Below, piece by piece: positions 15,631 to 44,593 of a stretch of DNA of 64,000 nt. The stretch's first letter is position 1. Every line of letters begins with the position of its first letter. The stretch is from Rhizophagus irregularis (taxonomy: Eukaryota). Location of the stretch: the NCBI RefSeq assembly GCF_026210795.1, contig NC_089432.1, positions 2,852,001-2,916,000 of the forward strand. The letters run 5' to 3'. Made by a program: the position numbers and the translations under genes. The notes below the pieces were generated by a model. That model saw only the letters and a program-made list of their open reading frames with translations. It did no database searches and was not told the origin of the DNA.

Positions 15631-16369
15631 ATAAAATCTTAAGCAGATCTTAACGTGACCGTAGATGATTATCATATGGTTATTATTGGACAGGGGCGTT
15701 TAAAAGTCTTAACAGACTATTTTTCTACCGATTTTCTCAATATTGTAAAAAGTTCGTATTCGTAATATTACATTGAATTTAATTAATAATATTTAGTTTT
15801 TACTTTTTATTTATCAGACAAATAAAGCTTGATTATGATTTATTGCTTGCTCGTGTAATCCTACTCACGTGATAATAAGTCAAAAACTCAGTTAATAAAA
15901 TTTGACAAATCAGTAGATTGATGATGAATTTATCGATGTTAAAAGTACATACGAATATGAAAATTTTCCAAGAAATTAGTTCCAAAATATAAAAGTCGCT
16001 GCGCGCTGAAAATTTAAAATACTAAAATATATTTAACGTCTCAATAAGTTTATTAAAATTTCTTTAATTAACTTTTTTATTTAACCAACTTTGTTCTAAC
16101 AGATAAAAAGAGTAATCATATACAGTACATGTACTTGACTTCGGAAAGAAATTAATTTTACATATTTTGTTACAATCGTTATTAAAAATTTTGTAATTCT
16201 GTAAAAACGAATAATATTCAGTTATTTCAGTATCATAACAATCTACGGTTTCGTTAACGTTAAAGCTAATGCTGATCTTCGTTATACTTATTTATTTAAA
16301 TATAGAAAAGAAAAAGTTAACTAAAATATATAAGAAAACTGCGAATTACGACGACAATGCTTTTATGTG

Positions 16370-20044: not shown

Positions 20045-20073
20045 CTAGCAGTTACCCGTTGCTTCGCACCGGG
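20045..20073 (-). mobile_element. Canonical Helitron 3' terminus
   Basis: Minus strand reads CCCGGTGCGAAGCAACGGG (GC-rich hairpin), TAACTG, CTAG, then T. The 5' end was not located. Confidence 0.7.
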
Positions 20074-21115
20074 ACCAATGAGTTTGTTTAAATAGAAAAT
20101 TTTTGTAATACTAAGTAAATTGCTTATAATTAGGAATTCAATATAAGTAATAATTAGTTGACAAAAATTAATAAAATAATATGTATTGAATTATAAGTGT
20201 AAATTTAGATCTCGTCCCTTTGCGTGATGTTTAAATCTCGCCTTTATTTCAAAAAAGGATATTTTTATGCCGATCATTTAATTCTGACCAGAATTAAATA
20301 CGTCTGATTTAATGAAACCCCCCTTCCCGAAAATTCAATAAGTCAAAAATAATATTAGAAACCATCTTTGTTGCTTTAAGTAAACTTGCAGAGCAGGGGA
20401 AAATACACATAGTAAACATTTATTAAAAAGTTTGTATATTAAGATTTTCTTTTTTTGTTATAGGATGCGAAATTTTAAAATCATACAGGGGCAAAAATTA
20501 CACGTTCTCGACCCTCCTCATATTACTTTCTTGACCCGGTCAAAATAGGCATGATCATGTATGACAAAAATTTATTTTCTTGACCTGCAAAAAAAACACT
20601 GACGTATTGTTATTTTTCTTTTATAGACACAATCACACAAAGAGATTAATTGAAAAAAATAATATTAATACGAAGTGGGTCAAGAACGTAATTTTTGCAT
20701 CAGGGGAGGCATATCACGGGCTTTAATTATATGGCATGGGATTTCAAGTTACACAATTTAAACTATTTATACATGCTAGTTTAAAGGTTACGGTTACACT
20801 TGTATTTTTTTAGTTATATACAGTAGATTATGATTCAAACCTAGTATAATAAATGATTAATTTTCTATTTAAAATTGTTTTGTCTTTTTAAAGAAAATAA
20901 TTGTTAGAATATTAATAAGGGAATGTTCTAGTCTAAATTATTAAAATTAATTAACTAACAAATTTTATTAATCTAATGATTTATTTACAACAACAATTAC
21001 ATTATCATAAACACAAGTTATATATAAAGTAAAATAAAAGAATTTAGTTAGTTTAAATTATAATTAAATATTATATTATATAAACAAGTAATAATAGAAT
21101 TAATAAATAACTTAC

Positions 21116-22242
21116 AAACTATTTAATAAAGAATTTGTTAGTAATAATAGAATAAAATAAATAACAGTAGTTTAAATTATATGTAAGACGGGGTGATGAT
21201 CACCGGTGGCTGAAATTATGACGATCGACCAGCATTAAAAAATATAGTGCCGGTATAATTGATAATTCTGGCCAACGGTGATGATCACCCTGGTGATTTG
21301 AAGTAAAAATCATAATAAAATTAAATAAATAACTCATAACTTACCAACTAAAGAAATACAAAATAATTTTTAAATAAAGAATTTAGTTAGTTTAAATTAT
21401 ATGTAAATACTATGATATAATAGAATTAAATAATTAACATACCATCTATAAATAATTTTTTAAATAAAAGAATTTAGTTTAAATAAATTATAATAAAATT
21501 AAATAAATAACATATAACTTACCAACTAAAAGACATTACAAAATAATTTTAAAGAATTTAGTTAGCTTAAAATTATATAAATAATAGAAATATAGGTATT
21601 TATAACTTACACCCTAGTATTAATTAATTAATTATTAGTTAAATATAAATGTAATACAAATATTTTACTGCATATTAAATATATCACTTACAATCTGGTT
21701 ATTTAAATTAAGAATATAATTAGTTGAATTATATAAAATATTAAAACAAATAAATATAATATTGTAACTTACTATCTGTAATACAATTAATTATTAAATA
21801 GTTATTTAAATAAAGAATTTAGTTATTTTGAATATTATGCAAAATAAATAAAGTAAAAAAAAAATCTAATAACTATCAACTTACTGACTATATTGATTAC
21901 ATGAAATATAACAAAAATGATAAGTAATTCTATTATTATTCAATTGTAATATAACTTATTAACTTACGAGCTAAAAATATTTAATATAATTTTTTGTATA
22001 ATATAGTTAATTTAAATTATATTTATATATTATGTAAGGTATAAATAATTATAGGTAGTATTTAAATGTATTTACAAATAAAAATTTAATATTTTAGCAT
22101 GTTTAATATACCTTTAGATTCCCTGATGCTACTTTCTTTAAATTCTTCAGAAACTAATTTATTACATTGCAAGTTTGTTAAAAATTTTAGAGTTCTAATT
22201 ATATACTATATAATTATTACCTTTATTATTACTTTCAGCCAT
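21116..22242 (-). pseudogene. Orphan, truncated copy of the micro-exon N-terminal cassette (no kinase domain follows)
   Basis: Exons 22242-22221 (MAESNNK) and 22153-22112 (VSEEFKESSIRESK). Then 3-nt exons, each flanked by AG/GT: CTC (21968-70), TCA (21885-87), ATA (21773-75), ATT (21692-94), GGT (21611-13), TTG (21523-25), ATG (21443-45), TTG (21345-47), TTT (21116-18). Inverted homolog of ~34090-35000. Confidence 0.75.
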
Positions 22243-23949
22243 TATTATATAATTATCTCTGACTGGAAAAGATAATGTAAATATTTTTTTCTTTTTTTTA
22301 TTGTTAAACGCTTTTATTAATATGGGTATATATGGTAATAATATTTATGCCAAGCATTGTAGAACTTGAGCCCGTGTAATACACGTTTGCCACCTCAAAG
22401 CTACAAAAGATCGTCCTTTATTTATAACAACAAAATATTAATATATCCCAAGTTACACATATACTATAATAACGCACGTCAATAAAGGGTTCACTCTTTT
22501 TCCTGAACGAATTCCTTTCGTATTTATAATATTTCACAACTCTTCCCAGATACCTTTCAAGTATCGCCTATTGCAAGAACAAATTAAATAAAATTACACA
22601 AAAATTAAAATCGCACAAAATAATATTTACACAAAAAAATATTTACACAAGAATAGTTTAACGTAAATTACGGTCGTTACACTAATAAAATACTTTAAGA
22701 ATTTATACACTTAAACTAAATATAATACTGCGCTCTATAATTAATTGCGAAATCGCAGTAACTGGTTGATCATTTCGTCTTTATCGTCTTTAATAGGTAA
22801 TTACTAATCACCTTTATTTTATTTTTTTGTGTTACAATTGATTATATTGTTAGAGTCTTTATTAACTTGAAGATAAGAATGCCGAAAAGCTTGAATCCAT
22901 AAACAGATTTTTCTTAATATATTCTACATTATTACAAACAAAACATAAATACACAACTCACAATAAATAACATATTAACTGAAAAAATATTAAAGGGCGT
23001 GCCAACTTGATTCCTGACGCCACCCTAGTTATTATATTATTTTAGTTAGGATTTCTATACGTTTCTTTTATAGTTCACCATCACCAATTCACCACCACTA
23101 CCATCACTGCTACTTTTATCCTCATATTGCCTTTCTGTTAACATTTTTTTTAATTTATAAACTATTTGGGTAAATTTAATAATACACTAAATACAGTATG
23201 TATATTATTATTTAATGGATGCAATAGAAGAAAGAAAAAAAAATTTGGGGAAAAGAAAAAGGATAAAGAAAGAAATGGGATTTAAAAAAAACAAGTACCG
23301 AAAAAAAGGACAATAATTCGGTCAAAAAAAAGACCAAAAAAAAATTCAAAATAAAAATTAATAATATGGTCAACAAAAAGACCGAAAAAAATAATATAAG
23401 TCTTAAAAGATTATTTAATAAAAAAAAAGTAATAATTTTTCGGTTTTGGAAAAAAACCAAATCTAGACGGGAAAAGAATGAAAAAAAAAACAAAAAAAAA
23501 GAGAAAAAGGAAAAAAAACGAAAAATTTTTGAAAAAGATAAGAAAAAGGAAAAGAAAAAGGTGTTTCGAAAGAAATTTGAAAAAAAAGTTTGAAAAAAAA
23601 GAAAGAACTATTTGTAAAGGATCGGTTCAAGAAAAAAAAAGAAAATTAAAAAAAGGGGAAACGAAAAAATTTACCGATCGGTTGGAAAAAACCAAAAAAA
23701 AAAGCCGATCAAGCGGCTCTTAACAATTCAAAATTAATTTATACAGGCTAATCTAAACGTTCATAACTAAATTTTCTACTATATAAAAATAAATTTAACT
23801 ATACTAAAGTAATTTTCTGTGTAGTGTGTTATGTTTGATCTAAAGAAATATTTGTCACAATATTACCTATATCTTATTCAGCGTTACCTCTTTTTAATAT
23901 TTTTACATCTCAATTTTTTTTAATCTTTGTTTTTCTGTAAATTTCCATC

Positions 23950-25588: not shown

Positions 25589-27063
25589 ATGACATCACTT
25601 TTTTATTCCAATCTTTCAAAAGACCTCTCCTTAATATTAAATAATGCTGACGATTACAATGTCATTATCCATGTTGGTGAAAACGACAATAAAAAAGAAT
25701 TTTATGCGCACTCAGTTATTTTACGTGCTCGTTCTTCTTATTTCAAGAGTGCACTTTCTACTAATTGGATTACAAAGAAAAATAATATGATTATATTTAA
25801 TAAACCAAATATTACTCCAGCCATTTTTGACATAATTATAAAGTAAGGATAATAATATTATTATTTTATTACATTATATTTGTTTTAATAAATTTTAATT
25901 TAAGATATATTTATACCGGAGAGCTTGATTTAACTAAACAACCGGGTGAAAATATTCTTGGATTGTTAATTGCATCTGATGAATTACTCCTTGAAGAATT
26001 ATTTGAATATGTTCAAAATTATTTAATTGAAAAACGAACTAGTTGGATTTATCAAAATTTCGTTCTCGTTCTTAATGATGTGTTTAGACTCGACAGTTGT
26101 AAGAAGCTACAAAATTATTGTCTTGAGTCTATCTGTAAGGATCCACTTCCATTTATTACTTCAAAATCTTGTCTGTTATTAGATGATAATGTCGTTTTTA
26201 GCTTGCTTAAAAGAGATGATTTACAAGTTAGAGAGATTATAATTTGGAACTTTTTAATCGAATGGGGTATTGAACAAACTCCTGATTTGCGAAGTGATAG
26301 AAATAATTGGAATAATGAGAATTACGAAACATTGGAGAAAACTTTAAATCAATTTATTCCTCTTATTCGGTTTGTGGGAATTTCTCATGAAGAATTAATT
26401 GATAAAGTTCAACCTTATAAGGCTATTATTCCCAATAATCTTTTAAAAGAAATTGAAGAATTTTGTTATAATAATATCTTACCAACTTTACCTCTCAGAA
26501 CGAGAAAAATTGAATCAAATATTATCAAATCAGAACTTATAAATTTAATAATAGTTAATTGGATTGACAAAAAAGATATTATGATTACTCGTACTGGTAA
26601 TGATCCTTTATATAAATTTAATCTTATTTATCGTGGTAGTCGTGATGGAATTAATAATAAATCATTTAAAAATAAGTGTAATGGAAGGGTAGCAAGTTTA
26701 GTTTTAATCAAAGTTTCAGGATCGAATAGAATCTTTGGTGGATATAGTTCTATTGGATTTAGTGCTTTAGGAAATAATCTTTGGAATAAATATGATGGAA
26801 TATTTTATGATTCATCAGATAATTTTATTTTTTCATTTGAAAATAGTGAAGATATACATAATATAAAAATAGGTCGTATAATAAATAATGATAAAGCTAT
26901 TCAAGATATTGAAACTTGTGGTTTTAATTTTGGTTGGAGTTCATTATCAATGATTAATACTAATTTAAATATTGTTAATCATGATATTTATGAAAGGATT
27001 TTACCTACAGAAAAAATTTTTTATATTACGGAATTAGAAACTTTTTCTGTAACTAAATTATAA
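25589..27063 (+). CDS. BTB/POZ-BACK-TLDc domain protein (2 exons)
   Basis: Exons 25589-25842 and 25905-27063 (phase-2 GT-AG intron). BTB motif FYAHSVILRARSSYF, BACK-like helical region, TLDc motifs LIYRGSRDG, IFGGYS, FIFSF, ELETF. Confidence 0.93.
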
Positions 27064-27539
27064 TTTTGTTTCATTCTCATTTAATAAAGCATATAATTTA
27101 TTATTATTATAATTCTAAAGTCATTAAGAGACAAAGGATGCAGCTTTTTTAAGTGATTTTATTAATAAATCTTTAATTTTTAAGGCATAGGTAAAGGGAG
27201 CTTTTATTATGTGAATATGGAAAATATAATCAATTTTAATTGAACAAATCCGTGTTATGTTTGATTATGAGAAATCAAACCTTTACATTGTTCAATATTC
27301 ATAATCAAATAACTACCAAAATATAGGGTGTCCGATAAATCCAAATAATTCGCAAAGTGTAGCGTTATAATTAATCACTAATAATGAAAGAATTGATAGT
27401 ATTGAAAATAATTAACCATAAGGTCACATGCAATATATTAATAATAATTTTTTGTTAATAAATTGGTTTTTTGTATTTTGAATTTTGACAATCACTGAAG
27501 AAAAATTCATGCAATTTTTTTTTCTTAATATTAAGAGAG

Positions 27540-28737
27540 CTTAATTGTGGATTATGCTGCAATTGAATTTCATAATCCTGAGATTAAAAAATCAGTGTCA
27601 ATCCCTAGTAGGTCAATAATTATAACATGTAAAAATATCAAATTTCTTAATCAGATTATAAATAATAATCAGTAGAAGATATATCATGTATTCAATTTAA
27701 TTGAAAATATTAAACAAAATCTTAATCATCTTTCAATCATTATAGATGAATGTAGTACAATTCTATTACAAAATTTAGGACAAACCAATCCTCCTAAATT
27801 AGAAAATTTACATCTGTATCTTTATTAGTGCTTCGATCCATGCATGGATAAAACCGCGGTATCCGGATATCCAAAAAAAAAATAGCTATCCGGATACCGC
27901 GGTTTTATCCAGATAAAATATCCGGAGAGAAAATATCTGGTTTGAACCGTTATCCGGATAAAAAAAATTATAAAATATTTTTTTTAATCATTTAAATTAC
28001 CTTATTTATTGAAATTATTATCTATTAAATTACCATTTGTTAAAATCATAATCTATCTTACTAAAATTACTATTAGAATATTCAATAATTCAGGCCATCT
28101 ATAATGCCAGCCCGAATTTTGTGAAATTGATATTTGTCAAGAGGCAGCAGTATCCGGCCCAGCTTAATAAAATTTGGGATTTTTGTAATTTTGGCCGCCA
28201 TTATATGTTTGGCCCAAATTACTGTTGATCCATGATTTAAAAAAAAAATTTTTTCTAATAGTTAGGCTGAATTGATTAATTTTATGTTACAAAATGGTAT
28301 ATAAATATAATAAAAATAATTAGTTTATGCCTAATCTTCCATTATTTTGCGATTTTAATGTGCTTTTTATATTTATAATAATGTATTTATTGCAAAATTT
28401 TACGTTTCTCAAATTTTCAAAAAATTGACATAATTCAGGCAAAATTCGTAGTGCTGGCCGAAATTAAAATTTTATTTTGTTTAAAATTAATAAAATGTCA
28501 CTAATTTCGTTAAAAATATTAAGTCAAAATTTAATTAAGTTAATGCCACTGATATTATTTGTTAAGATCGATCAATGAAAAAAATTATTTATATATAATC
28601 TTATCCGGGTTTCAGTTTCTATCCGGATATATCCGGATTTATATCCGAACCGAATAATCCAGATAAAACCCGGATAATTTTTTTAATTTATCTGGATAAC
28701 GGTTTCTACCCGGATCGAAGCACTAATCTTTATCACA
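27540..28737 (+). pseudogene. Upstream part of a disrupted F-box-like paralog
   Basis: CKNIKFL..LIENIKQNLNHLSI..LQNLGQTNPPKLENLHLYLY matches the 44594 and 47542 genes. Interrupted by a hAT MITE, then by the 14.8-kb insertion. The N-terminal part is missing or decayed. Confidence 0.85.
27826..28725. mobile_element. hAT-type MITE (same TIR family as 5028-5746)
   Basis: TIR TAGTGCTTCGATCC / GGATCGAAGCACTA. Perfect 8-bp TSD ATCTTTAT (27818-27825, 28726-28733). Confidence 0.93.
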
Positions 28738-29475
28738 TTAGATTATATACTAAAGAAATCAAATTTTTTAAAAAATTTCTTTAGTAACTGGATGAACAAT
28801 TTCTAGAATTCGACAAGTTAGAATCTACAGTTTAAGTTTAAATTATATTAAAGTTAGTTATAGAGTCATTAATGGTCTGTCATTAATGGTTCTAGATATT
28901 TAGAAAGTTTATACGTTATATTTTATATAATAAACTAAATAAATGCGTTACTAACTAAAAAAAAAAAATTAGGAAAAGGATTATTACAATTAAAAAGTCA
29001 GGATGAACTGACAGTAGGTGAAAACGGGATTTGAGACCACGGGCGCGGATTAAGTCAAACAATCACACATTTAGAGCATCAAAAGACGAACAATATTATG
29101 ATGTAGCTGATAGTTTAGCAGATCTGAAGGTTTCTAATGGCGAAAATAAAGATGTATCAACAGGTAAAGTAAGTACTAAAGAGAAAGAAAATGTAGGTAT
29201 TATCAATGTAAATAGGAAATGTGCTGCTGAAACTCAAGCTTCTAGAGGGTATAATGATATCAATAGTAAAAGTAGTGATAGTGATGGACTATGGAAAGCC
29301 GCCATGGTCAAAAGTGCGTAGCAAAACATAGCGTGTATACGCTATGTTTTGTAGCGCGTATACGTTATATTTCACGGCGGGTTACCCCTGTTCTGTCTGT
29401 TTCAGGGGTAACCTGTTGCAAAAAATAGCGTTTAATACGCTATATTTCATAGCGTTATATACATTATATGTTATG

Positions 29476-29610
29476 ACGGGTACCCGTTATAAGAAACGGC
29501 AGGTACCTGTTATAAGGAACGGCGGGTACCCGCTATAAGAAACGGCGGGTACCCGTTATAAGAAACAACAGGTACCCGCTATAAGAAACGGCGGGTCCCG
29601 TTATAAGAAC
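29476..29610. repeat. ~23-bp tandem repeat GGGTACCCGTTATAAGAAACGGC
   Basis: About 6 units. A related array (GGCGGGTACCCGATATGTGAA) lies at 31470-31600 in the same element. Confidence 0.85.
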
Positions 29611-30697
29611 TGGCAGTCAGCATATTAACTTTTGATATCAATAATGATAATTATTTATTTAATGAAATTTTATTTGCAAATATTAAAATTTAAGTCACCC
29701 ATTTACGATTTTAAAGAAAAAAATCACCATATATTTATTTTTATTTAAGTGTAAAAATAAAAGAAACAATAACAATAAATAAAAGGATAAGTAAATTACA
29801 ATAATCAAGGAGAAAGATGCTAATAAAAAAATGAAATAACAGTGGGAGTAATGGAAAGTAATAGAAGATGAAAGGTAGTAAAAAAGAGTAATGAGAAGTG
29901 ATAGGAAACAAAAAGGAGAAATAGGACATAATGAGAGATGAAAAGGAGTGATGGGAGACGAAAAGAAGTGATGGGAGACAAAGAGGAGTGATAAGCAATA
30001 AAAAGGAGTTATGGGAGACAAAAAGAAGATGAAGAGGAACAAAAAGAAGTGATGGGAGACGAAAAGAACGAAAAAGAGTGATGGTAGACGAAGAGGAGTG
30101 GTGGAAGACGAAAAGGAGCGATGGGAGATGAAAAGAAGTGATGGGAAGATGAAGAGAAGTAAAAATTTATTAAAATTGTAAATTTAATAAAAAATTTTCC
30201 AATAAATTTTCAATCAATTTTTATAAAAAAAATTAAAAAAAAATTTCAAGCCAAAATTCTCAATACACTTATTAAAAAAAAACTATTATCAATAAAATTT
30301 TCTATTAAGATTTCTAAACAAAATTCTCCATCAAAAAAATAAAAAAAATTTTCAACAAACAATTCTCTAATGAAATTCTCAATCAAAAAAAATATTCCTG
30401 ATTAAAAAGATTCTTACCACCTATTAAAAAAAATTCTCAAAGAATTTCTATATCAAAAAAAAACTCTCCTATTAAAAAAAAAATCTTTACCGAAATTCTC
30501 TATCAAAAAAAAGTCTTCCCTGTTAAAAAAATTTACACTAACGAAATTATCTATCAAAAAAAAATTCTATGATGAAATTTCTATCAAAAAAAAAAAAAAT
30601 TCTCAGCGAAATTCTTTAATGAAATTCTCTATCAAAAACAATCCCCCTATTAAAAAAAATTCTCTAATAAAATTCTCCGTCAAAAAATACTTTCACC

Positions 30698-30963
30698 TAG
30701 GGATGGCAACGGTTATAATCATAACCGTTTAACTGACCGTTTAACCACATTTAACTGACCGTTTGACCGACCATTTAAACATTTGACCGACCATTTTTAA
30801 CCGTTTAACCGACCATTTGACTAATTATTTAAGTAAAATAGTATAACCGACCATTTAACCGACCGTTTAACCAATTTTTTAACCGACCATAACCGACTGT
30901 TTAAATTTCTATAACTGATTATAACCGACCATAACCGACCATAACCGACCGTTGCCATCCCTA
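30698..30963. mobile_element. hAT-type MITE nested in the IS3EU-like element
   Basis: TIR TAGGGATGGCAACGGT / ACCGTTGCCATCCCTA. Perfect 8-bp TSD CTTTCACC. Internal TAACCGACC repeats. Confidence 0.95.
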
Positions 30964-33900
30964 CTTTCACCCATTAAAAAAATTCTCAAAAGAAATTCTT
31001 TATCAAGGAAAACTCCCTCAATTAAAAAAAAATTCGTAACGAAATTCTCTATCAAAAAAAATTTCACTTGTTAAAAAATTTTCTAACGAAATTATCTATC
31101 AAAAAAAAATCTTCTCTATTAAATAATTCTCTATCAAAAAAATCTCTCCTGTTAAAAAAAATTGCTCCAACAAATTAAGTATACATCAAAAAAAAAAAAT
31201 CTCATTAAAAAAAATTCTCCAATGAAATTTCTATCAATTAAAAGTTTTTAACAAAATTATCCATCAAAAAAAAACTCAGAAATGTTCCTATCAATGAAAA
31301 AAATTTTCTAACGAAATTTTTTATCAAAAAAAATCTTCTTATTAAAAAAATTCCCAATGAAATTCTATCAAACAAAGCCTTTGCCTATATTAAAAATAAA
31401 AATTCTCTACAAAATTTGTTTATAAAAAAAAGCCAATAAAAAAAAAAAATTTTTTTTTAAAAAAAATTAAATGGCAGGTACCCGATATGTGAAATGGCGG
31501 GTACCCGATATGTGAAGCGGCAGGTACCCAATATGTGAAGCGGCGGGTACCTGATATGTAGAACGGCGGGTACCTGATATTTGAAACGGCAGGTATTCGA
31601 TCCCTTAATAATTTAAAATTTGGTCCAAAATAAATTAATAAACCATTATAATATAAAGCGCATACGCGTTAAATTATGTAGCGTATACACGTTGCTTTTT
31701 ATGGCGGTGTAAACAGTCAAATATCAAGCATGAAAATATGATAAAATTCAACCACCAAATGTAATTGCCAAATATCAAGAACGAACAAATTAATTGTGAA
31801 TTGGCGTAGACGGATAAATAATTAGCCGAAAAGGATAAACATTTAGGAAGAGATATGATCTACATGATGTAATATTTATCAAATGATTGACAAAGAACCA
31901 ATAGGATAAATAGAGTCGATCAATTGGGGCTTAGCAATCTTTAACAATGAGAACGATTAGAAAGAATAATTATAAGCCACAAAAGATAGATTATAAGCAA
32001 AACACATAAAGCGAATTGAAAGAACATATAAAATAATGTCAGAAAGATTAAAGAACATAAAATAATATAAAAGATAATATAAAAAGATAGTATAAAGATG
32101 GAACATAAAAGATGACATATTAAAAAGAACATATATAAAAAGATAGCGTATTTAAAATATAGATAATACAAAGATATTATAAAAGATAATATATATATAA
32201 AAGATAGCATATTAAAAGATAGCGTATTTAAAATATAGATAGTATATTAGAAAGATAGTTCAAAGATAATATGTAAAAAGAACATAAAAGATAGTATATA
32301 GATAGAATAGAAAGTAGCGTAAAATTTGTATAAATAGAGAACGGAATTCAAAGTAATTCCACAGTTCTCATCCACAGAACTCAATAAAAATATAAGTTTC
32401 ATTTAATTATTTGTTAATGAAGTTTAATATTAATTAGAGGTAATAGGTTCGCCCTAAACTTTAATTAATGTTCGCTTAATTAATTTTGATTGAATAAAAT
32501 GGAAATTTAAGATGAATTAAATATATACTTTTGGAAGGTAATAATTCGTAGCGAGAGCTATCGAAGTTTGAAATTAAAGGTAAAAGTGGATATAATTTGG
32601 GGAAAATTTAGAGAAGTTAATTTTTATTTTATATCGTTTAATGTTTTATATTACTAACGCTATTTATGTCATGAACCAAGAATGTTGTTGTTATATGTTG
32701 TTGTATGTTGTTCGTTGATTATGTTGTTTGATTATGTCGTTAATTATTTGCTTGTTCGTTTAATTGCTCGTTCGTTTGTTTATTTGTTCGTTCGACCATG
32801 AGAATGCCCGTTCGATGTGGCAACTCTGTAAATTGATGACAGAGGGAATTGGGGGATCTCAGCAGGTTACCCCTGAAATTGACAGGTTAACCCAACAGAA
32901 CAGGGGTAACCCGCCGTGAAATATAACGTGTATACGCTATGTTTTGTAGCGTGTACACGCTATGTTTTGCTACGCACTTTTGACCACTACCGCTTGCCAT
33001 AATGGACATACGCTAGATTAGACAAGTTTTAAACTAGCATGGTCTTTTTTGGTGTAGGTTTCAATATAAATTTGTAGAAAATAGATACTTTATTGACACA
33101 CTGTATGTATATATGGTGAATATGGGTCTGATTAAGATGTTAATTGACTCCAGCACTAATAAAGTATTAGTCAAAAAAAAAAAAAAATTAACCAGTTAAT
33201 GTACCTTCGAAAATTAATTAACTAGTTAATAACTGTATGTACATATATACTGTATATTCTTTTATAATAATTTTACAATAATTAAAAAGTATTTTTACTA
33301 AATAAAACAATGCTACTTGATATTATATTATAAATTAAAATTATTCAAAATTACAAAAAACAGTTATTTATAAAAACTACATATATTAAAATTAATGTTA
33401 AATAACTCTTGAATGTAAAAATATTCAAAATAATAGGTCATCAGAATTTTAATATTCAGCTGGAATAATCTTGAAATTGTAACACTTAAAAGAAGTGATT
33501 TTATAACTGTTCCTGAAGCAATTAGAGAATATGAATGACTTGAAAGAATAGCCAATAACCTCTTGCCAATCTAACGTCTATTGCACCTATTGAATAATAA
33601 TATACATATTATTAAATTTGCTCAAATAGTTTATAAATTAATGAATAAAATGTTAATTTGATTTTTTTCACAGCATAAAACAATCATGTTAATAGAGGCA
33701 ATATGAGGATAAAAGTAGTAGTGATGGTAATGGTGGTGGTGATGAACTATTTACACCTCCCTAGTTAATTGTAAACGAAATGTCGAAACATATAGAATTC
33801 TAACTAAAATGATATAATAATAAATACCCTAACAATATAATCAATTGTAATTAGGAGCTTTGAAATTACAAATCATGTGATAAGATGCAGTGTAAGACGA

Positions 33901-34091
33901 ATAAGAAACACCAAAAAAATAAATAGTAATTGCCTAAAACGAAATGATCAACCAGTTACTGCGATTTCGTAACATATGCAATGCTTGTACTTGTGATCAA
34001 CGGCTTTTGCATATAATGCATTTTGTATAAATATTACCATATATACCCATATTAAAGAATATTTACATTATCTTGAGATAATTATATAGTA

Positions 34092-37000
34092 ATGGCTCAC
34101 AGTAATGATAAGGGTAATAATTATATGTAATATATATAGCGTATAATTAGAATAAAATTTTTAAACAAATTTGCAATGTAATAAAATTAGTTTCCGAAGA
34201 ATTTGAAGGAAGTACTAGTACCAAGGAATCTGAAGGTATATTGAACAGGCTGAAATATTAAATTTTTGTTTGCATACTATCTATAATTGTACCTTACATA
34301 ATAATTTAAGCAAACTAACTATTATACAAAAAATTATATTAAATAATTTAGCTCGTAAGTTAATAGGTTATATTACAATTGAATAATAATGGAATTACTT
34401 ATCATTTTTGTTATATTTCATGTAATTAAATAACTTATTTAATAATTAATAATACTATAGTCAGTAAGTTATTAGTTATTTAAATATTTGGTTTTTTACT
34501 TTATTTTATTTTACATAATATTCAAAATAACTAAATTCTTTGTTTAATAACTATTTGATTAATTAATTGTATTACAGTTGGTAAGTTACAATATCATATT
34601 TATTTGTTTAATATTTTATATAATCCAACTAATTATATTCTTAATTTAAATGACCAGATTGTAAGTAATATATTTAATTTGCAGTAAATATTTTGTATTA
34701 CATTTATATCCAACTAAATAGTTAATTAATAATACTAGGGTGTAAGTTATATATACCTATATTTCTGTTATTTATATAATTTAAATTAATTAAATTAAAA
34801 TTATTTTGGAATTTCTTTTAGTTGGTAAGTTATATGTTATTTATTTAATTCTATTGTTACTTAATTTAAACTAATTAAATTTCTTTATTTAAATAGATAG
34901 TAAGTTATAAGCTATTTATTTAATTCTATTATTACTTGTTTATATAATATTTATATATAATTTAAACTAACTAAATTTCTTTATTTAAATAGATAGTAAG
35001 TTATAGGTTATTTATTTTATTACTTGTTTATATAATATTTACATATAATTTAAATAACTAAATTCTTTATTTAAATAGATTGTAAGTTATAAGTTATTTA
35101 TTTAATTCTATTATTACTTATTTATATAATATTTATTTATAATTTAAACTAATTAAATTATTTATTTATAATATTATTTAATAATATAGGGTGTAAGTTA
35201 TTTATTTAATTCTATTATTACTTATTTATATAATATTTACATATAATTTAACTAACTAAATTCTTTATTTAAAAAAATATTTTGTAATTTCTTTTAGTTG
35301 GTATGTTATAACTTATAAGTTATCTATTTAATTCTATAATATTTATTTACATTAGTTGTTTACATATATGATTTATATATAATTTAAAATTAACTTCTTA
35401 TTTAAAAAATTATTTTGTAATTTCTTTTAGTTGGTAAGTTATAAGTTTTTTATTAATCCTATTATTACTTGTTTATGTGATAATTAAATATAATTTAAAC
35501 CAATTAAATTCTTTATTTAAATTATTTAAATAGATGGTAAGTTATAAGTTATTTAATTCTATTATTACTTATTTATATAATATTTACATATAATTTAAAC
35601 TAACTAAATTCTTTATTTAAATAGATGGTAAGTTATAAATTATTTATTTAATTCTATTATTACTTATTTACATATAATTTTAACTGACTAAATTCTTTAT
35701 TTAAATAGATTGTAAGTTATAAGGATTGATTTAATTCTATTATTACTTATTTATATAATAATATTTACATATAATTTAAATTAACTAATAAATTCTTTAT
35801 TTAAATAGATGGTAAGTTATAAGTTATTTATTTAATTCTATTATTACTTATTTATATAATATTTATTATTTACATACAATATAAACTAACTAAATTCTTT
35901 ATTTAAAAATTTATTTTATAGGTGGTATGTTATTTATTTAATTCTTTTATTACTTATTTATATAATATTTATAATATGAGTAAATTTATTCATCGCACGT
36001 GCGATGCATCGCCACTTTCCTTTTTTGTAAATTATTTATGTTGATCAACCTGCTTATACATCGCCACCCCCCTTAAAATGGCAATGATAAACATAAAAAT
36101 TTGCATCGCACGTGCGATAAATAAATTATTTCTTATAATATTTACGTGTAATTTAAACTAATAAAATTCTTTATTTAAATAGATTGTAAGTTATAAGTTA
36201 TTTATTTAATTCTATTATTACTTATTTATATAATACTTATATATAATTTAAACTAACTAAATTTTTTATTTATAGGGCGTAAGTTATATTTATTTAATTC
36301 TATTATTACTTACTAATTATATAATATTTACATACAATTTAAACTAACTAAATTCTTTATTTAAAAAATTATTTATAGATGGTATGTTATTTATTTAATT
36401 CTATTATTACTTATTTATATAATATTTTCATATAATTTAAGCTAACTAACAAATTCTTTATTTAAATAGATGGTAAGTTATGAGTTTTTTATTTAATTCT
36501 ATTATTAGTACTTATTTATATAATATTTACATATAATTTAAACTAACTAAATTCTTTATTTATAATATTATTTAATAATATAGGGCGTAAGTTATTTATT
36601 TAATTCTATTATTACTTATTTATATAATATATACATACAATTTAAACTAACTAAATTCTTTATTCAAAAAATTATTTCATAGATGGTATGATGTTATTTA
36701 TTTAATTCTATTATTACTTATTTATATAATATTTACATATAATTTAAACTAATTAAATTCTTTATTTATAATATTATTTAATAATATAGGGCGTAAGTTA
36801 TTTATTTAATTCCATTATTACTTATTTATATAATATTTATTATTTACATACAATTTAAACTAACTAAATTCTTTATTTAAAAAATTATTTTATAGATGGT
36901 ATGTTATTTATTTAATTCTATTATTTAATATTTACATATAATATGAATTAACTAAATTCTTTATTTAAATAGATAGTAAGTTATAAGTTATTTATTTAAT

Positions 37001-39476
37001 TCTATTATTACTTGTTTATATAATATCTATATATAATTTGAACTAACCAAATTCTTTATTTAAATAGATTGTAAGTTATAAGTTATTTACTTAATTCTAT
37101 TATTACTTATTCATATAATATTTACGTATAATTTGAAGTTTTAAACTAACTAAATTCTTTGCTTAAAAAATTGTTTTATAGATGGTATGTTATTTATTTA
37201 ATTCTATTATTACTTATTTACATAATATTTTCATATAATTTAAACTAACTAAATTCTTTATTGAAAAATTATTATTTAATAATATCTGATAGGGAGTAAG
37301 TTATTTATTTAATTCTATTATTACTTATTTATCATATAATTTAAACTAAATTCTTTATTTAAAAAATTATTTAATATTATAGGGCGTAAGTTATTCTATT
37401 ATTACTCATTTATATAATGTTTACATATAATTTAAACTAACTAAATTCTTTATTAAAAAATGATTTTGTAATTTCTTTAGTTGGTAAGTTATAGGTTATT
37501 TATTTAATTCTATTATTACTTATTTGCATATAATTTAAACTAACTAAATTCTTTATTTAAATAATTATTTTATAGATGGTATGTTATTTATTTAATTCTA
37601 TTATTACTTATTTATACATATAATTTAAAGTTTTAAACTAACTAAATTCTTTATTTAAATAGATACTAGTAAGTTATAAGTTATTTATTTAATTCTATTG
37701 TTACTTATTTATATAATTTACATGTAATTTAAACTAACTAAATTCTTTATTTTTATAGATGGTATGTTACTTATTTAATTCTACTATTACTTATTTATAC
37801 AATATTTATATACTAATTTAAACTAACTAAATTCTTTATTTATAAAAATTGATTTAATAATATAGCTTGTAAGTTATTTGTTGTTTGTATTTTATATAAT
37901 ACTTATTTGTTAATTGAATTTTTTCATTCAAATTTCTGTTACTTTAGTTGGTAAGTTGTAGGTTATTATTATTATATATATTTATACAAAAACTAAGACA
38001 TACAGTATATTATATTAAATTTTTATTTAAATTTTAGAGTAAGTGTTGATTTTAATCTTATAACTTTTGATATAAATTTCAATATAATTTCAATTATTTA
38101 AATTTGTAGATTTGGAAAAAGTGGAAATGTAAATATGGATAACTTTATTTTAGAAAAAAAATTAAAATGGATTCCTTATGATAAATTTAAAAATATTGAA
38201 TATCTTGATAAAGGAGGATTTGGTACTATATATAAAGCTAATTGGTTAATTAATAATGAAGATAAAGAAGTAGTTCTTAAATGTCATGATAATTTAAGTG
38301 AAAATTTAAATGAATTTTTAAATGAAGTATGATAATATATTATTTTATTTTATAATTTAAATCATAATTTATTTATACTAATATATTATGATTTTTTTAT
38401 AGTGGAAATATCACAAAAGTTGTTTAGGTTCAGATAAAATTATTTATTTTTATGGCTTTACAAAAGCTCCAAATACTTTGAAATATATGATGGTAATGGA
38501 TTATGCAAATGGAGGTAATTTAAGAGGAAACTTAACAAGAATAATCGAAATTGTTTGGAATCAAAAATTATATATGTTACATGAAATTATTTCTGGACTT
38601 AATAATATACATGAACAAAATCTTATTCATTGTGATTTTCATGATGGTAATATTTTAAATCATTATGAGAATAAAATTTATATTAGTGATTTAGGATTAT
38701 GTAAACCTGTAAAATCATTTATGAAAAAATATGATATTTATGGTGTTATACCATTTATGGCACCTGAAGTTTTAAGAGGCAAATCTTATACTCCAGCTAG
38801 TGATATTTATAGTTTTGCTATGATTATGTGGGAATTTACATCTGGGGTAACACCATTTAATAATAGAGCACATGATGTTCAACTTAGTTTAAGTATTTGT
38901 AAAGGTGAACGTCCTGAAATTATCAAAAATACTCCACAATGTTATGTAGATTTAATGGAAAAGTGTTGGGATGAAAACCCATTAAAAAGGCCATCTTCTA
39001 AAGAAGTTTTGAATATTATTAAAAATTGGGTTTTTTTTTCAGGTAAAGGGGAAGTTGAAGATATTAATGAAAAATTGAAATGTAATATTATGGAATTTAT
39101 AAATGCACCAATTGGGCATAACAATAATCTTTCTATTGAATCTCATCCACAGTCATGTTATACAAGTCGCTTACATGGTTTTACTAGTAAACAATTGAAT
39201 GAAATTCTTGGAAGTAGAGATTTACAAGCTTATTATTCAAGTCAATCTACTAGTGGAAAAGTGAATGAAATTCTTGAAAGTGAAGATTCACAAGCTAGTG
39301 TAAAAGTGGATGAAATGCTATTAAGTGAAAATTTGGATGATTGTATATTTAATTTGAAGTCATTAGGTATGTAATATAGTATATAAAAAGAATTAAATTT
39401 TATGAATTATTTATATGAAATTAATTTAATTATTTAATTATTTAATTAATTAGATATTAAAACAGACAAAAAATAA
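34092..39476 (+). CDS. Tyrosine-kinase-like protein kinase with a micro-exon-encoded N-terminal segment (predicted 42 coding exons, ~460 aa)
   Basis: Exons 34092-34113 (MAHSNDK), 34191-34235 (VSEEFEGSTSTKESE), 37 micro-exons in 34352-38038, then 38110-38326, 38403-39366, 39454-39476. Kinase motifs KGGFGTIY, VVLK, HCDFHDGN, DLG, APE, SDIYSF. The kinase part is certain; the N-terminal model rests on splice signals and frame closure. Confidence 0.8.
34236..38109 (+). other. Tandem intron/micro-exon array (38 introns, 37 micro-exons)
   Basis: Repeating unit GTAAGT/GTATGT ... (A)ACTAAC-type branch site ... YAG, followed by a 3-nt exon. Introns are about 70-130 nt; one is 258 nt because of a MITE. 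Confidence 0.85.
35978..36132. mobile_element. MULE-like MITE inside a micro-exon-array intron
   Basis: TIRs GAGTAAATTTATTCATCGCACGTGCGATGCA / TGCATCGCACGTGCGATAAATAAATTATTTC. Perfect 9-bp TSD TTATAATAT. Confidence 0.88.
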
Positions 39477-39867
39477 CTAATTATAAAAATTTATAGTTTT
39501 TTTTAAAGTGATATTTGATGTCATGCATTTAACAGAAATTGTTTAGATTTATTTAAACACTAAGGCTAAAGTAGTAAAATAGTTTACAAATTTCTTAGTT
39601 TGTAATTTAAATAATTCCTTTTTTTTATAGCTTATCCAAGAATTAAATATTATATTCTCTTTTATTTTACTTAGAATTATTTAAGCACTAAGACTAGAGT
39701 AGTAAATATTTTACAAGTTTCTTAGTTTGTAATTTAAATAAATCTTTTTTTTTAACTTTTCCAATTATTATATATAAATTATCAAAATAATAATATAAAA
39801 CCATGACCAATAATGTGTTGGCTTTTATTTTTAAAAATTATATATTAAGACAAGACATTACATTATA

Positions 39868-40379
39868 CATCAGGAAATTTGTTTAGGCATAATTTAGTGT
39901 AATATTTCGGAGGTGGTGTAAAATTTCGAAATATTACACTAAAAATGTAATATTACAAAAGTTTACACTTTTAAATTTGAATAATTATAGTAATTTAAAA
40001 TATCTCGCTATCTACTGATCCAATCAAGACGATCTATAGCTCATTGGAATCAGACGAATCGAATGGTAGTAAAATCGCATTTCTACAGTTGATAGAATGT
40101 TCTATAGTATGCAATAAAGTTTTAAATTAATAGAAAGTTATCTATCAAACGTAAAGATACGATTTTACTACCATTCGATTCGTCATGATGAGCTGATTCC
40201 AATGAGCTATAGATCGTCTTGCTTGGATCAGTAGATAGTGAGATATTCTTAAATTACTATAATTATTCAAATTTAAGAGCATAAACTTTTGTAATATTAC
40301 GTTTTTAGTGTAATATTTCAAAATTTTACACCACCTCCGAAATATTACACTAAATTACGCCTAAACAAATTTCCTGATG
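39868..40379. mobile_element. Fold-back MITE with TA TSD (Tc1/mariner-like)
   Basis: Starts CATCAGGAAATTTGTTTAGGC, ends GCCTAAACAAATTTCCTGATG. Inverted arms exceed 200 bp. TA on both sides. Confidence 0.9.
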
Positions 40380-40726
40380 TACATAATTATTTATAGTTAT
40401 TTTAACTTTATTACACTAATAAGCATTAAAAGGCAGTTAATGGTCAAATTGTAAAATATTTTTAGAACTTTTTTGTTTACAACATTTTAAAAATTATTTT
40501 AGCAGTCATTACAAACTTATTATGATTTTTTTAAATCATATTAACATTTCCTAATAAAGATATGTATTGAAAATATTTTGCATGTTTAAGTGACCAATTT
40601 CACATTTGCCTATTTGATTCGAAAGGTTACCTTTGTTTTGTAAGCTATTTTTAAATAGCTTTTTTAATAACCTTGACACCTTTGCATTTGATAATTGATC
40701 AAATTTTTACATGTAAAAGATATTTG

Positions 40727-41597
40727 TAGAGCTCCAAATGGGTCAGGTCAGGTCAGGTTATATCAGGTTGTCTGTTTGACCTGACCTGACCTGAAACCTG
40801 AAAAATTTTTATTAAAGTATTGAAAAAAAACGGTACAAAACTTTTTTTTTTAATATAATATTATGAAAAAAAACGTTTTTGCAACGTTTTTTATTAAAAT
40901 ATTGAAAAAAAATATTGCAAAACGTTTTTTTTAATATAACATTATGAAAAAAATGTTTTCGCAACGTTATTATTGAAATATCAAAAAAAAAACGTTACAA
41001 AACATTTTTTTAATATAATATTATGAAAAAACGTTTTCACAATGTTTTTTCTCGAAATCTTGCGATTCAACATTTTTATATTAAAATCATATAAAAAAGT
41101 GAATCCCAATACTGCAATTCACTTTTTTATATTGATTTTGTATAAAAAAAGTGAGTTGCGGTATTGCGATTCACTTTTTTATATAGATTCTATATAAAAA
41201 AAGTGAGTTGCGGTATTGCAATTCACTTTTTTTATATAGAATTAATATAAAAAAGTGAATCGCAATATCGCAACTCACTTTTATTATATAAAATCAATAT
41301 AAAAAAGTGAATCGCAATACCGAAACTCACTTTTTTTATATAGAATCTATATAAAAAAGTGAATCGCAATACTGCAACTCACTTTTATTATATAAAATCA
41401 ATATAAAAAAGTGAATCGCAATACTGCAACTCACTTTTATTATATAGTAGAATCAATAGTTTCAGGTCAACAGGTCAATCAGGTCAGGTCAATCTTCATA
41501 CCTGACCTGAATTTTTTTTAAAATCTCATACCTGACCTGAACTTCAGGTCAGGTCAGGTCAGGTTACCTGAATTTGGCTGACCTGTTCGGAGCTCTA
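40727..41597. mobile_element. hAT-type MITE
   Basis: Ends TAGAGCTCC / GGAGCTCTA. Perfect 8-bp TSD GATATTTG. Subterminal GGTCA/TGACC repeats and internal AAAAAAGTGAATCGCAATAC..CAACTCACTTTT arrays. Confidence 0.93.
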
Positions 41598-43547
41598 GAT
41601 ATTTGCACAAATTTTTTAGAGTTGATTATATACTATATGAATTTTTGGAGGAAAATAATCATTTATTAACCTTTTTCCAGAAATAGGGATAATACAAATA
41701 ATGCATCAACTAATAATGAAACAAAAGATCTTGAGTTAACAAAAATTTTGCCACTAGATAACTAGTAAATTGAAAATACAATGTAAGTACTAGCTATATA
41801 ATAATAAATAATAGAATTAAAGAAAACAATAAGTACTATTAAATAACCTAATAAAATTTTCCACCTTAATTTAAAGTACATAATAATAATTGGAAAAATA
41901 AATGAAGAATAAAGTATATATATTATGGTATTATTCATAGGAAAACTTCATATATAGAAAGATTCCACCCCACACATTACTGAAACCTAAGAATTACTAC
42001 TGCTAGTTTTAAATGAAAATTTGTAGAAGCTATAGATAGCTAAATGAATTATAAATAAGCAACTTGTAAATTACTATAGATAGTTTAATAATTTACTAAT
42101 TAGCAGCTTTTACAATACTTATAGATTACTAAGTATTTGTGTTATTAATCAATTTATAGTATTTTAGGTGACCTAAATATATATTAAAGTAAACATGTAT
42201 TAAATTACTAGACCACCTAGTGGCAGCTATGTAATTATATTATAGCAATAATATAATAAATACAGTAAGTAATAAAATAAACAGCTGTAAAATAAAATTG
42301 AATAATTCTTTCCATTTGTATTACTTTCATCATGTATAAAGTATGCATGATGGGTAGGGATGATGATGACTCTATTGATTCAACTTGGTTCTACAAATTG
42401 AAATAAGACAGAGTGAGTGACTCAAAAAACATGTTCAGAGTGGAATTTGGAACCAAACTGACTTGGAGTGACTCAATGCAACAAAAAAATCAAGTTTTGA
42501 TACGTACAAAACTTGGTCTTTCATTTTCCCAGAAGCCCCACTCGAAAAATCTATGCATATACTTGAGAAGTACAAGGTCTAATGAAGTTGTCCTTAAAAA
42601 AGCAATTTTGTTTAAAGGAGACCTAAAAGAATATAAGAACCAGTTAGTATAATGTTATTTTTTTAAAAAAACTTTTGTCAGATATTTGCAAGACCTAATT
42701 AATTCCTTTTCCTGAAACTCTAAAACTAGAAAAAATAAGATAAACAGTAAATCAAAAAAAAATTTAAGTTTCAAAACTTACATTCGCATCCATTTATAGC
42801 TGAATTGAAGTCTACAATAAAAATTTGAATTCTAGCCAAATTCTTTAAAAAAAAAAAGGTTTACTATTTCACTATTTAAAATATTATAAAATATTAAAGT
42901 TATATAACAAAACATTACAAATCTTACCATTTTAATGAAAAGATAGTCCCAAAACCTACAAAATAAAGGAAAAATTAACATGATATTTCTTTCAAAAAAA
43001 TAAATTGAAAAAAAAGTTTTGAAATGAGACAAAACTTATCACTTCTTTAACATATCACTATCCAGATGGTCCCAAAATCTACAAATAAAAAAAACATTAA
43101 TATGACATTTAAAGAAGTTAGGTTTTAATATGAAGCTTACTTTTTCTGATTCTTATTGTTTGGACCTACATAATCCAAAATCAGATGTTGGACCTGCAAA
43201 AAGACAAATTGCAAAACATTAGTTAATGTTTTATCAAAAACAAAACAAAATAATAACAAAATTTATGCCTTTGAAGTATCTAAAGCAGAAATAGAAACTG
43301 GAGAGAACCTACAAAAAGAGAGTAAAGAAAAGTTAGTAATATTTCTTCAGAAAAAAAATGAACTTTGAAACTGAAATTCATCTCAGGATTCTCATTAGGA
43401 ACCTTGAAAGAACAACAATCGTAATTTTTCTTCAAATTTGGGTATGTTGCTATGGTAGAAAGAAAATGAGCAATCGCTGTTGTATAGTAAAACTTTGTGG
43501 CACTTGCGAAAAGTGGACTGGCTGCAAATAAAGCGTTTTATAAGTGA

Positions 43548-43747
43548 TTAGAGAATGTGATATTGAAGTATTTCTAAAAAATTCTCAAGATACTTTTGTT
43601 AAGAAATTATTAATCTGTAGCATTTATAATCAGGAAGATATTTTACCTTCTATAAAAGCTAAGAATATATCTTTTAAAAAAAGAAGGGTTAAGTATTTGG
43701 CTATTAATGTTTTTTTTAGAATAAATGATAAGGAATTGTTTTCATTT
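43548..43747 (+). pseudogene. Downstream part of the disrupted F-box-like paralog
   Basis: RECDIEVFLKNSQDTFVKKLLI..QEDILPSIK..KKRRVKYLAIN..ELFS matches the C-terminus of 44594-46165. The downstream flank (~43870-44060) resembles ~46400-46620. Confidence 0.88.
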
Positions 43748-44593
43748 ACTTGTTATTGAGATTATCATTGTTTTTATTAGTTCAAAAATCTGAATTCTTT
43801 CTTTATTTGGTGATACAATAATTTGTTTTGTCATAATTATGCTCTATTAACTTTTGGTTTTTGTATTATTTACTGGAAAAAAATTATTAAACCAAGTAGC
43901 CAAAAGGAGGAGAAAATTAAAATGAGGATGCAACAAAGAAGTTTAAGCATTGTTGTAACAATATTTCTATCATAAATATCTTAATATCTTATTAAATGTA
44001 ATGCTGGATGCACAGATATATGAAATGGGAATAACTGAACGGAGTAAAAGTAGATAAAGCTTCGAATAATTTATAAAAAAATTAAACATAACTCGCATAA
44101 ATGAAGCAAAAAAAGAATTAAATTAAGTGAACTCTAACTTTAATTACAATCATTTTCCATGATTCAAAAAAGTTGTGATTTCAACAGTTAAAGGGTAGGT
44201 ATTTATTATATAAATTTTATTATTATAAATTATATTTAATAGGGTGCCTATTAACCTAAGCATTTACATAAAATAGATTTTCTATAATAAAGCACTGTGA
44301 GGGTATAAGTTATAAAAAATATCAACCTAAACATTAAAAAATTTTGGTAAAAAAAAATTAGAGATTAAAAGTTTATTACGGCTTAAAAAAATTTTGATTA
44401 ATATTGCATGATCGGCATCATCAATTAGACGAGTTTTTTAATTCTTGACATTATAAGTTTGTTATTTACGTCAGTGACGTTACACAATACAAATTGTGCG
44501 ACAATATCGGAATCACCATTTCCGAAAATTTAAATTTATTCATAGTAAAATGTGATACACAAATACCTCTCTTTTTCTCCTTTAGTTTACAAT

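What the first reader, a model, noticed from the sequence alone, without database searches (positions are those of the whole stretch)
28738..43547. 14.8-kb insertion carrying the whole micro-exon kinase splits an F-box-like gene exactly
Seen: joining 28737 to 43548, after removing the hAT MITE and one TSD, gives uninterrupted ...CAT CTG TAT CTT TAT CAC ATT AGA GAA TGT GAT ATT GAA..., collinear with the intact paralog near 45840. Minus-strand ends fit canonical Helitron rules (A|TC ... hairpin ... CTAA|T), although the hairpin is AT-rich with a 15-nt loop. The junctions can also be read as a 6-bp ATTAGA direct repeat without TIRs, as left by tyrosine-recombinase elements. No transposase is visible inside. 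Inference: an apparently intact, diversifiable kinase gene is mobilised as cargo, which could spread this family through the genome.
Basis: partly seen in the sequence, partly recalled or inferred. Interest (0 to 1): 0.8.

Follow-up and report, generated by a model that had tools for sequence, protein, structure and literature searches.

The report
Kinase-carrying insertion with Helitron-like ends
In the mycorrhizal fungus Rhizophagus irregularis, a 14.8-kb block holding an open-frame kinase gene predicted to be built from one-codon exons sits exactly inside a broken F-box gene fragment and was likely dropped there once by a Helitron rolling-circle transposon, but no sister copy turned up, so it does not show that transposons spread this kinase family.

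Summary
The insertion is real. Removing it and the adjacent hAT MITE restores one reading frame, collinear with seven F-box-family homologs. Single contigs from 3 of 4 runs bridge the left junction.

Corrections: the host is a ~135-codon pseudogene remnant, not an intact gene. About 5.3 kb of the block are nested elements, so the core is ~9.5 kb. A gene model from another isolate has the block's left part beside the same neighbour gene but lacks the 3.7-kb nested element, so the block is older than that element.

The ends fit Helitron1 best: A|TC, CTAA|T, and a perfect 12-bp stem 6 nt before CTAA, the only one among 462 CTRR|T sites in the window. The 6-bp repeat lacks recombinase-type inverted arms.

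Family-wide mobilisation is unsupported. No kinase copy between 84% and the locus itself was found, the left end is low-copy, and the neighbouring paralog lacks the ends.

Best reading: an old, probably one-off Helitron read-through capture (0.55). The right end and expression were not tested.

The parts
25589..27063 (+). BTB-BACK-TLDc gene, left neighbour used as synteny anchor
   Evidence: Pfam; tblastn of P0121; cluster members in another isolate and R. diaphanus
27616..27825 (+). Left half of F-box-family pseudogene remnant (5'-truncated, one in-frame stop)
   Evidence: tblastn and alignment with P0128-P0132 and two window paralogs
27826..28725 (.). hAT-type MITE, 900 bp, 14-bp TIRs, 8-bp TSD ATCTTTAT; ends 12 bp from the big insertion
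   Evidence: a relative at 5028-5746 with its own 8-bp TSD
28738..43547 (-). The insertion, 14,810 bp (core about 9.5 kb without nested elements); Helitron register A|TC ... CTAA|T
   Evidence: left junction bridged in 3 of 4 runs
28737..28742 (+). ATTAGA, left copy of the 6-bp junction repeat
28748..28786 (-). Perfect 12-bp stem, 15-nt loop, 6 nt before CTAA: candidate Helitron 3' terminator
28738..29289 (+). Segment A: low-copy left part with an ORF-like fragment of no known family; present beside the same BTB gene in another isolate
29290..33001 (.). Nested non-autonomous TIR element, TATGG..CCATA ends, 6-bp TSD ATGGAC (IS3EU-like; label recalled); high-copy interior; absent in the P0121 assembly
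30698..30963 (.). hAT-type MITE nested in the previous element, 8-bp TSD CTTTCACC
34092..39475 (+). Predicted 42-exon TKL-type kinase gene, 460 aa open frame; 37 micro-exons (35 of 3 nt, one of 6, one of 1) at 34352-38038; all 41 introns GT-AG
   Evidence: Pfam PK_Tyr_Ser-Thr E 1e-34; C-terminal 392 aa match public model P0126; splicing not shown
35970..36140 (.). Small palindromic MITE inside one kinase intron
39866..40381 (.). Tc1/mariner-like MITE bounded by TA (label recalled)
40727..41597 (.). hAT-type MITE, 8-bp TSD GATATTTG
41606..43547 (-). Segment E: right part of the core ending in the candidate Helitron 5' TC; intron-like signals on the minus strand (read by eye); no Pfam or Rfam match
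43547..43552 (+). ATTAGA, right copy of the 6-bp junction repeat
43548..43759 (+). Right half of the F-box-family remnant, losing similarity before the family's C-terminus

Best explanation
A 14.8-kb block carrying an open-frame kinase gene interrupts an F-box pseudogene fragment at an exact base, and it was likely placed there long ago, once, by a Helitron1-type rolling-circle event driven in trans. Shown: the exact interruption, the A|TC and CTAA|T junctions, the terminal stem, the absence of a recognisable transposase, and the later nested insertions (5.3 kb). Inferred: a RepHel protein from elsewhere nicked at the 5' TC end (43547, minus strand), read past its normal terminator through a chromosomal copy of the kinase gene, stopped at an AT-rich stem plus CTAA that served as a new 3' end, and joined the strand between A and T of the target. 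The 6-bp repeat would then be no duplication: two bases follow from the A|T rule and four from a target that matches the element's own 3' end. The block shows no sign of having moved again and has collected MITEs since.
For: Helitron1 definition: 5' TC, 3' CTRR, hairpin, insertion between A and T, no TSD (passages of PMC11417382; PMC4289320). All are met in one register and on one strand. 1 of 462 CTRR|T sites in the window has a >=12-bp perfect stem 2-9 nt upstream, and it is this breakpoint; 4 of 462 at >=10 bp. Spacing of 6 nt is within HelSearch's 5-8. A random 6-bp-TSD insertion mimics A|TC..CTRR|T in 0.4% of trials. 3'-end bypass with capture of flanking DNA and new 3' ends is shown for Helraiser (passages of PMC4778049). 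Helitrons are abundant in Glomerales (passage of PMC11952901). Age: P0121, 98% identical to the window's BTB protein, continues into segment A and reads through the site of the 3.7-kb nested element, while P0124 reads into it. The nearest kinase relative is about 0.2 changes per site away.
Against: The stem is AT-rich with a 15-nt loop; HelSearch asks for 2-4 nt, although the minimum-energy fold has a 3-nt loop plus a bulge. The four extra matching bases have a chance of 0.6% (49 of 8,624 AT sites), about as unlikely as the coincidence the rival needs. No second copy of either end was found (window only; 80 short metagenome loci). The one autonomous Helitron in the window carries DUF6570, an HLE2 marker by PMC11417382, and its ends do not resemble these, so no partner is identified. 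HELIANO's authors warn that TC/CTRR signals give many false positives. Fungal Helitrons rarely carried host gene fragments in Pleurotus. It is not shown that the kinase arrived with the ends rather than later: no kinase above 84% was found from the isolate that has segment A.
Confidence: 0.55

Rival explanations
1. Non-autonomous tyrosine-recombinase (Crypton-type) element: excised as a circle and integrated by recombination at a shared ATTAGA core, carrying the kinase as cargo.
For: Cryptons have 4-6-bp terminal direct repeats and no TIRs (passages of PMC3212892; PMC13465315). About 1,800 CryptonA-type copies are reported in Glomeromycota, most in R. irregularis and near kinase repeats (section 7 of PMC13465315). 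The target held the hexamer once: the Ile-Arg codons are conserved in P0128-P0131. It explains the 6-bp repeat without coincidence.
Against: No 11-13-bp inverted arms around the core: best 6 of 13 at the predicted circle joint, reached by 69% of random pairs. It leaves the TC/CTRR grammar (0.4%) and the one-sided stem unexplained. No recombinase remnant. The Glomhopper paper found no identifiable repeats and its cargo passages concern Starships.
Confidence: 0.2
2. No transposon: a one-off capture of a chromosomal segment during break repair (microhomology-guided or from an extrachromosomal circle), probably from the same neighbourhood, which is rich in these kinases and F-box genes.
For: Ends low-copy, no transposase, 6-bp microhomology. 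Relatives lie close by: a second micro-exon gene 5.5 kb away; an 81% kinase and the closest intact F-box gene on the same named scaffold; in R. diaphanus an 80% kinase and the closest F-box gene are six accession numbers apart.
Against: It needs the stem (0.3% per end) and the TC/CTRR grammar (0.4%) both by chance.
Confidence: 0.15
3. A DDE or other element that makes a true 6-bp TSD and whose TIRs have decayed or never existed (Pack-MULE-like carriage, or an undescribed class).
For: Perfect 6-bp duplication of a target that had the hexamer once. Kinase genes are enriched next to MULEs in this species and a Pack-MULE-like role was proposed (passages of PMC8647823).
Against: No inverted repeat links the two ends among the 25 longest of 6,116 pairs. 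The nested elements all keep clear TIRs. MULE TSDs are usually 9-11 bp (recalled).
Confidence: 0.1

Closest known systems
Non-autonomous Helitron1 (HLE1) elements with captured genes, e.g. helpo1.3 of Pleurotus ostreatus (PMC4289320, passages) and Helraiser 3'-end bypass products (PMC4778049, passages)
   Same: A|TC and CTRR|T junctions, subterminal stem at the right distance, no TIR, no transposase, about 10-kb size with gene cargo
   Different: AT-rich stem with a 15-nt loop, CTAA instead of CTAG, a 6-bp junction repeat, no sister copies or autonomous partner found; cargo is a whole 42-exon host gene
Crypton / Glomhopper tyrosine-recombinase transposons (PMC3212892 passages; PMC13465315 abstract, section 7, passages)
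   Same: 6-bp terminal direct repeat, no TIR, same organism and kinase-rich repetitive setting
   Different: No recombinase gene, no inverted arms around the core, one-sided stem, large cargo
MULE-linked kinase expansion in R. irregularis, Pack-MULE hypothesis (PMC8647823, passages)
   Same: Idea that DNA transposons move high-copy kinase genes in this species
   Different: No TIRs and no 9-11-bp TSD here; that paper reports proximity, this is a base-exact insertion holding a whole gene
Starship elements (PMC13465315 background passage)
   Same: Cargo genes between short direct repeats
   Different: No DUF3435 captain, far smaller, and Starships are described as confined to filamentous Dikarya

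Membership tests
Helitron1 (HLE1), non-autonomous | 5' end TC | tested here: met
   minus strand at 43547
Helitron1 (HLE1), non-autonomous | 3' end CTRR | tested here: met
   CTAA at 28741-28738
Helitron1 (HLE1), non-autonomous | Insertion between A and T, no TSD | tested here: inconclusive
   A|T holds in register 28738-43547, but the same junctions read as a 6-bp repeat
Helitron1 (HLE1), non-autonomous | Hairpin 5-8 nt before CTRR, >=6 pairs, short loop | tested here: inconclusive
   12 pairs and 6-nt spacing met; loop 15 nt against 2-4, or 3 nt with a bulge in the minimum-energy fold
Helitron1 (HLE1), non-autonomous | Ends shared with other copies and with an autonomous RepHel element | not testable with these tools
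Helitron2/Helentron (HLE2) | Short asymmetric TIRs and T|T insertion | tested here: not met
   No inverted repeat between the ends in the listed pairs; junctions A|T
Crypton (tyrosine recombinase) | 4-6-bp terminal direct repeat, no TIR | tested here: met
Crypton (tyrosine recombinase) | 11-13-bp inverted arms around a 6-8-bp core (general YR site) | tested here: not met
   best 5-7 of 13 at four joints, random background 39-91%
Crypton (tyrosine recombinase) | YR gene, or ends shared with a YR-coding copy | tested here: inconclusive
   No YR inside; sharing of ends not testable without the genome
TIR DNA transposon / Pack-MULE | Terminal inverted repeats with TSD | tested here: not met
   junction sequences
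TKL-type protein kinase (PF07714) | Kinase domain above cut-off with Lys, His-x-Asp, Asn, Asp-x-Gly and APE motifs | tested here: met
   120 bits against cut-off 23; motifs; activity and expression not tested

The most novel reading that the evidence does not exclude
The block is one member of an unrecognised family of non-autonomous rolling-circle (or recombinase) cargo elements in arbuscular mycorrhizal fungi. They choose targets that mimic their own 3' end, pick up whole micro-exon kinase genes, and have seeded much of the kinase family across the genome, with ends now too diverged for the searches possible here.
Probability: 0.12. Interest if true: 0.72.

Novelty: new member of a known kind. 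Interest (0 to 1): 0.36.

Why it matters
How R. irregularis multiplied and scattered its kinase genes is open; the published link is proximity to MULEs (PMC8647823, passages). A base-exact insertion that holds a whole kinase gene is a direct record of one such gene changing place, and it gives two precise ends to search the genome with. As it stands it is one old event in a pseudogene, of a kind (Helitron gene capture) well known elsewhere. It would matter more if the 5' end proved to be multi-copy and paired with other kinase cargo. Searches that found no report of it; most subscription papers and bioRxiv supplements are outside the library.

Tried and rejected
No genome is held for this window, so the ends could not be searched genome-wide. 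Run search: 24 runs listed, no RNA holder listed; this says nothing on expression. Reads were laid only on 27300-33150; the high-copy nested element filled the joint and loose-end tables, so an empty site or other flanks could be hidden there. Metagenome scan with a kinase alignment: 80 loci kept of 226, only 4 of 80 at least 5 kb; segments A, B, D, E and both flanks hit 0 of 80, the kinase's 3' part hit 4 of 80: inconclusive. Left-end pattern: 1 match in the window (itself), 0 in viral contigs. Four end motifs: 0 hits in the one supplement held for PMC11075540; supplements of PMC8647823 were listed, not read; a TE library in supplements not seen could hold these ends. Fanzor/omega-RNA idea for the right end: no stable fold (z +0.6 to +2.1), no Rfam match at either end, no TnpB match: rejected. 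The window's RepHel as partner: HLE2 marker and unlike ends: rejected. Segment A in the Atlas: no usable hit; its only protein hit is a gene model of the same locus. Two segment E ORFs are not in the collection by exact sequence; a sensitive search of segment E is still lacking. My recollection of a 'Voltron' element in Rhizophagus found no paper. Six of seven look-ups in earlier scan findings returned nothing. One search picked the wrong MITE copy; only its tail and its micro-exon list were used, and one search repeated the join properly.
Full report
Organism and setting. The kinase exon at 38403-39371 is 100% identical to a protein of Rhizophagus irregularis; 1,143 proteins matched at E<=0.001 and the best 120 were listed. 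No genome is held for the window. The window is AT-rich and holds Sel1-type kinases, BTB-TLD and F-box genes and an intact RepHel ORF.

The observation. A 900-bp hAT-type MITE (27826-28725, 8-bp TSD) ends 12 bp left of the block. With the MITE, one TSD and 28738-43547 removed in a script, the frame is continuous and aligns without a gap at the site to 7 of 7 homologs. Both halves rank the homologs alike: P0129 39/49 left and 49/67 right, P0128 36/49 and 49/64, the window gene at 44594 29/49 and 41/67, the one at 47542 30/47 and 23/61. The host is a remnant: it covers about residues 355-490 of 521-524-aa relatives, has an in-frame stop and no F-box domain. Whether it decayed before or after the insertion is unknown. 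P0131, a 99-aa metagenome protein sharing the remnant's peculiar residues, crosses the site uninterrupted, with only 6 residues on the left.

Assembly check. Contigs from four runs were laid on 27300-33150. Single contigs of X4, X6 and X8 (three studies) bridge the left junction with at least 42 bases on the left and 0-2 differences; X1 shows none among the listed pieces. These runs look nearly identical to the window, so they test the assembly, not polymorphism. In two other named assemblies the BTB gene and the kinase have consecutive accession numbers.

Anatomy. About 5,286 of 14,810 bp are later insertions: a 3.7-kb TIR element with a 6-bp TSD (IS3EU-like, label recalled) that holds a hAT MITE, an intronic palindromic MITE, a Tc1-like MITE and another hAT MITE. 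The core of about 9.5 kb has segment A, the kinase gene and segment E. None of 24 frames of the non-kinase core matches Pfam at E<=0.05. None of 20 Rfam matches reaches its gathering score, and none lies at an end. A 42-exon model gives a 460-aa open frame: 37 micro-exons (35 of 3 nt, one of 6, one of 1), all 41 introns GT-AG, catalytic motifs present. The three public models of this gene start after the array. Splicing is predicted, not shown. The kinase exons have 3 CpG against 17 expected and segment E 7 against 32, while the BTB gene has 23 against 23. This suggests long residence in methylated DNA (inference; such kinases are more methylated in PMC8647823, passages).

Age. P0121 (PKY54013.1) is a gene model 98.4% identical to the window's BTB protein over 383 aa. 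It continues into segment A at 98.7% over 78 aa and ends with the residues predicted if the 3.7-kb element is absent, whereas P0124 reads into that element's TIR. So the block's left part is at the same place in another isolate and predates the nested element. This rests on a protein model, not on DNA. No kinase from that isolate above 84% turned up, so the kinase may have joined the block later, or been missed there.

The ends. On the minus strand the junctions read A|TC and CTAA|T, with a perfect 12-bp stem 6 nt before CTAA. It is the only such stem among 462 CTRR|T sites in the window (4 of 462 at 10 bp); z -2.8. The same junctions read as a 6-bp repeat. Each reading needs one coincidence: four extra matching bases under Helitron rules (0.6%), or the TC/CTRR grammar under a repeat model (0.4%). 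The stem breaks the tie, since only the Helitron model predicts it, on that end and at that distance (PMC11417382, PMC4289320, passages). Recombinase-type inverted arms are absent (best 6 of 13 at the circle joint; 69% of random pairs reach that; expectation from PMC3212892, passage). Against the Helitron: the long AT-rich loop, the warning on false positives of such signals, and no partner. The window's RepHel has DUF6570, an HLE2 marker, and unlike ends.

Mechanism. Most likely (0.55) a Helitron1 5' end was nicked in trans, replication ran past its terminator through a kinase gene, and an AT-rich stem plus CTAA served as a new 3' end, as shown for Helraiser (PMC4778049, passages). This predicts a repeated 5' end and a near-unique 3' end; only the second could be checked. 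Rivals: Crypton-type recombination at the hexamer (0.2), repair capture from a neighbourhood rich in relatives (0.15), another TSD-making element (0.1). These odds are my estimates.

Does it spread the family? Not on present evidence. In a tree of 33 rows (at least 74% identity over 230 aa; two duplicate models of this locus left out) the nearest neighbour is P0002, about 0.2 changes per site away (98/93). The left end lies in unbroken contigs in X4 and X8. Summed depth on 28868-29259 is 73 and 50 against 24-34 for single contigs in X4, and 591 and 662 against 225-250 in X8, versus up to 1e4-1e5 in the nested repeat. The tool warns that this is no copy number; it allows one or two diverged relatives of segment A, not a large young family. 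The second micro-exon gene at 21032-23228 matches 33577-35270 at 76% and has neither end nearby. The 80 metagenome loci were too short to judge.

Novelty. Helitron gene capture is known in fungi (PMC4289320, passages) and a transposon role in this kinase expansion has been proposed for MULEs (PMC8647823, passages). I found no report of this block or of Helitron-carried kinases in Glomeromycota (listings only, except the papers named). Papers seen: PMC13465315 (abstract, section 7, passages), PMC8647823, PMC3627910, PMC11417382, PMC11952901, PMC3212892, PMC4289320, PMC4778049 (passages), PMC11075540 (listing and one supplement search). Verdict: a real, well-bounded, old insertion; new member of a known kind; interest 0.36. 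The more surprising feature is the cargo's exon array, which recurs upstream of related kinases in 11 of 80 metagenome loci and is independent of this insertion as far as could be seen.

Noticed in passing
window 34352-38038; L004, L016, L018, L028, L043, L047, L050, L052, L063, L065, L080: Arrays of three or more 3-nt candidate exons stand on the kinase strand in 11 of 80 metagenome loci (up to 18 in L047) and in none on the opposite strand; a 1-nt candidate exon closes the array here and in L002, L004, L009. A family-wide feature, missed by the public gene models of this locus; splicing untested.
   Followed up: partly
window 21032-23228 (-): Second, truncated micro-exon gene: promoter, first two exons and part of the array, 76% identical to 33577-35270, no kinase domain, outside the insertion.
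   Followed up: partly
window 10399-15640 (-): Intact RepHel ORF (10635-15221) with DUF6570; CTAG|T end with a small hairpin near 10399 and an 11-bp inverted repeat near 10425 and 15620 (read by eye); a full-length sister in the same 90% cluster on another scaffold. Possibly a recently active HLE2 with a CTAG end.
   Followed up: partly
window 20046-20210 (-): Small Helitron-like element with a GC-rich hairpin 10 nt before CTAG|T (fold z -4.4); 5' end not verified.
   Followed up: no
window 29290-33007: The 3.7-kb TIR element with 6-bp TSD is very high copy in its interior and appears polymorphic between isolates (P0121 versus P0124). Part of its interior recurs at 1923-2794.
   Followed up: partly
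window 5028-5746: Another copy of the hAT MITE family of 27826-28725, with its own 8-bp TSD TTTATATA.
   Followed up: no
window 42300-43400 (-): A run of short exon-like pieces with branch points and AG acceptors, read by eye, starting near the candidate 5' end; no open frame or Pfam match. Could be a decayed gene or a spliced non-coding transcript.
   Followed up: partly
R. diaphanus records RGB36606.1 and RGB36612.1 (P0005, P0128): An 80% relative of the kinase and the closest intact relative of the F-box remnant lie six accession numbers apart on one 208,722-bp contig, hinting at an older local association of the two subfamilies.
   Followed up: no
window 28861-28895: Two tandem copies of an 11-bp palindromic unit 120 bp inside the left end that can fold into a long stem.
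   Followed up: no
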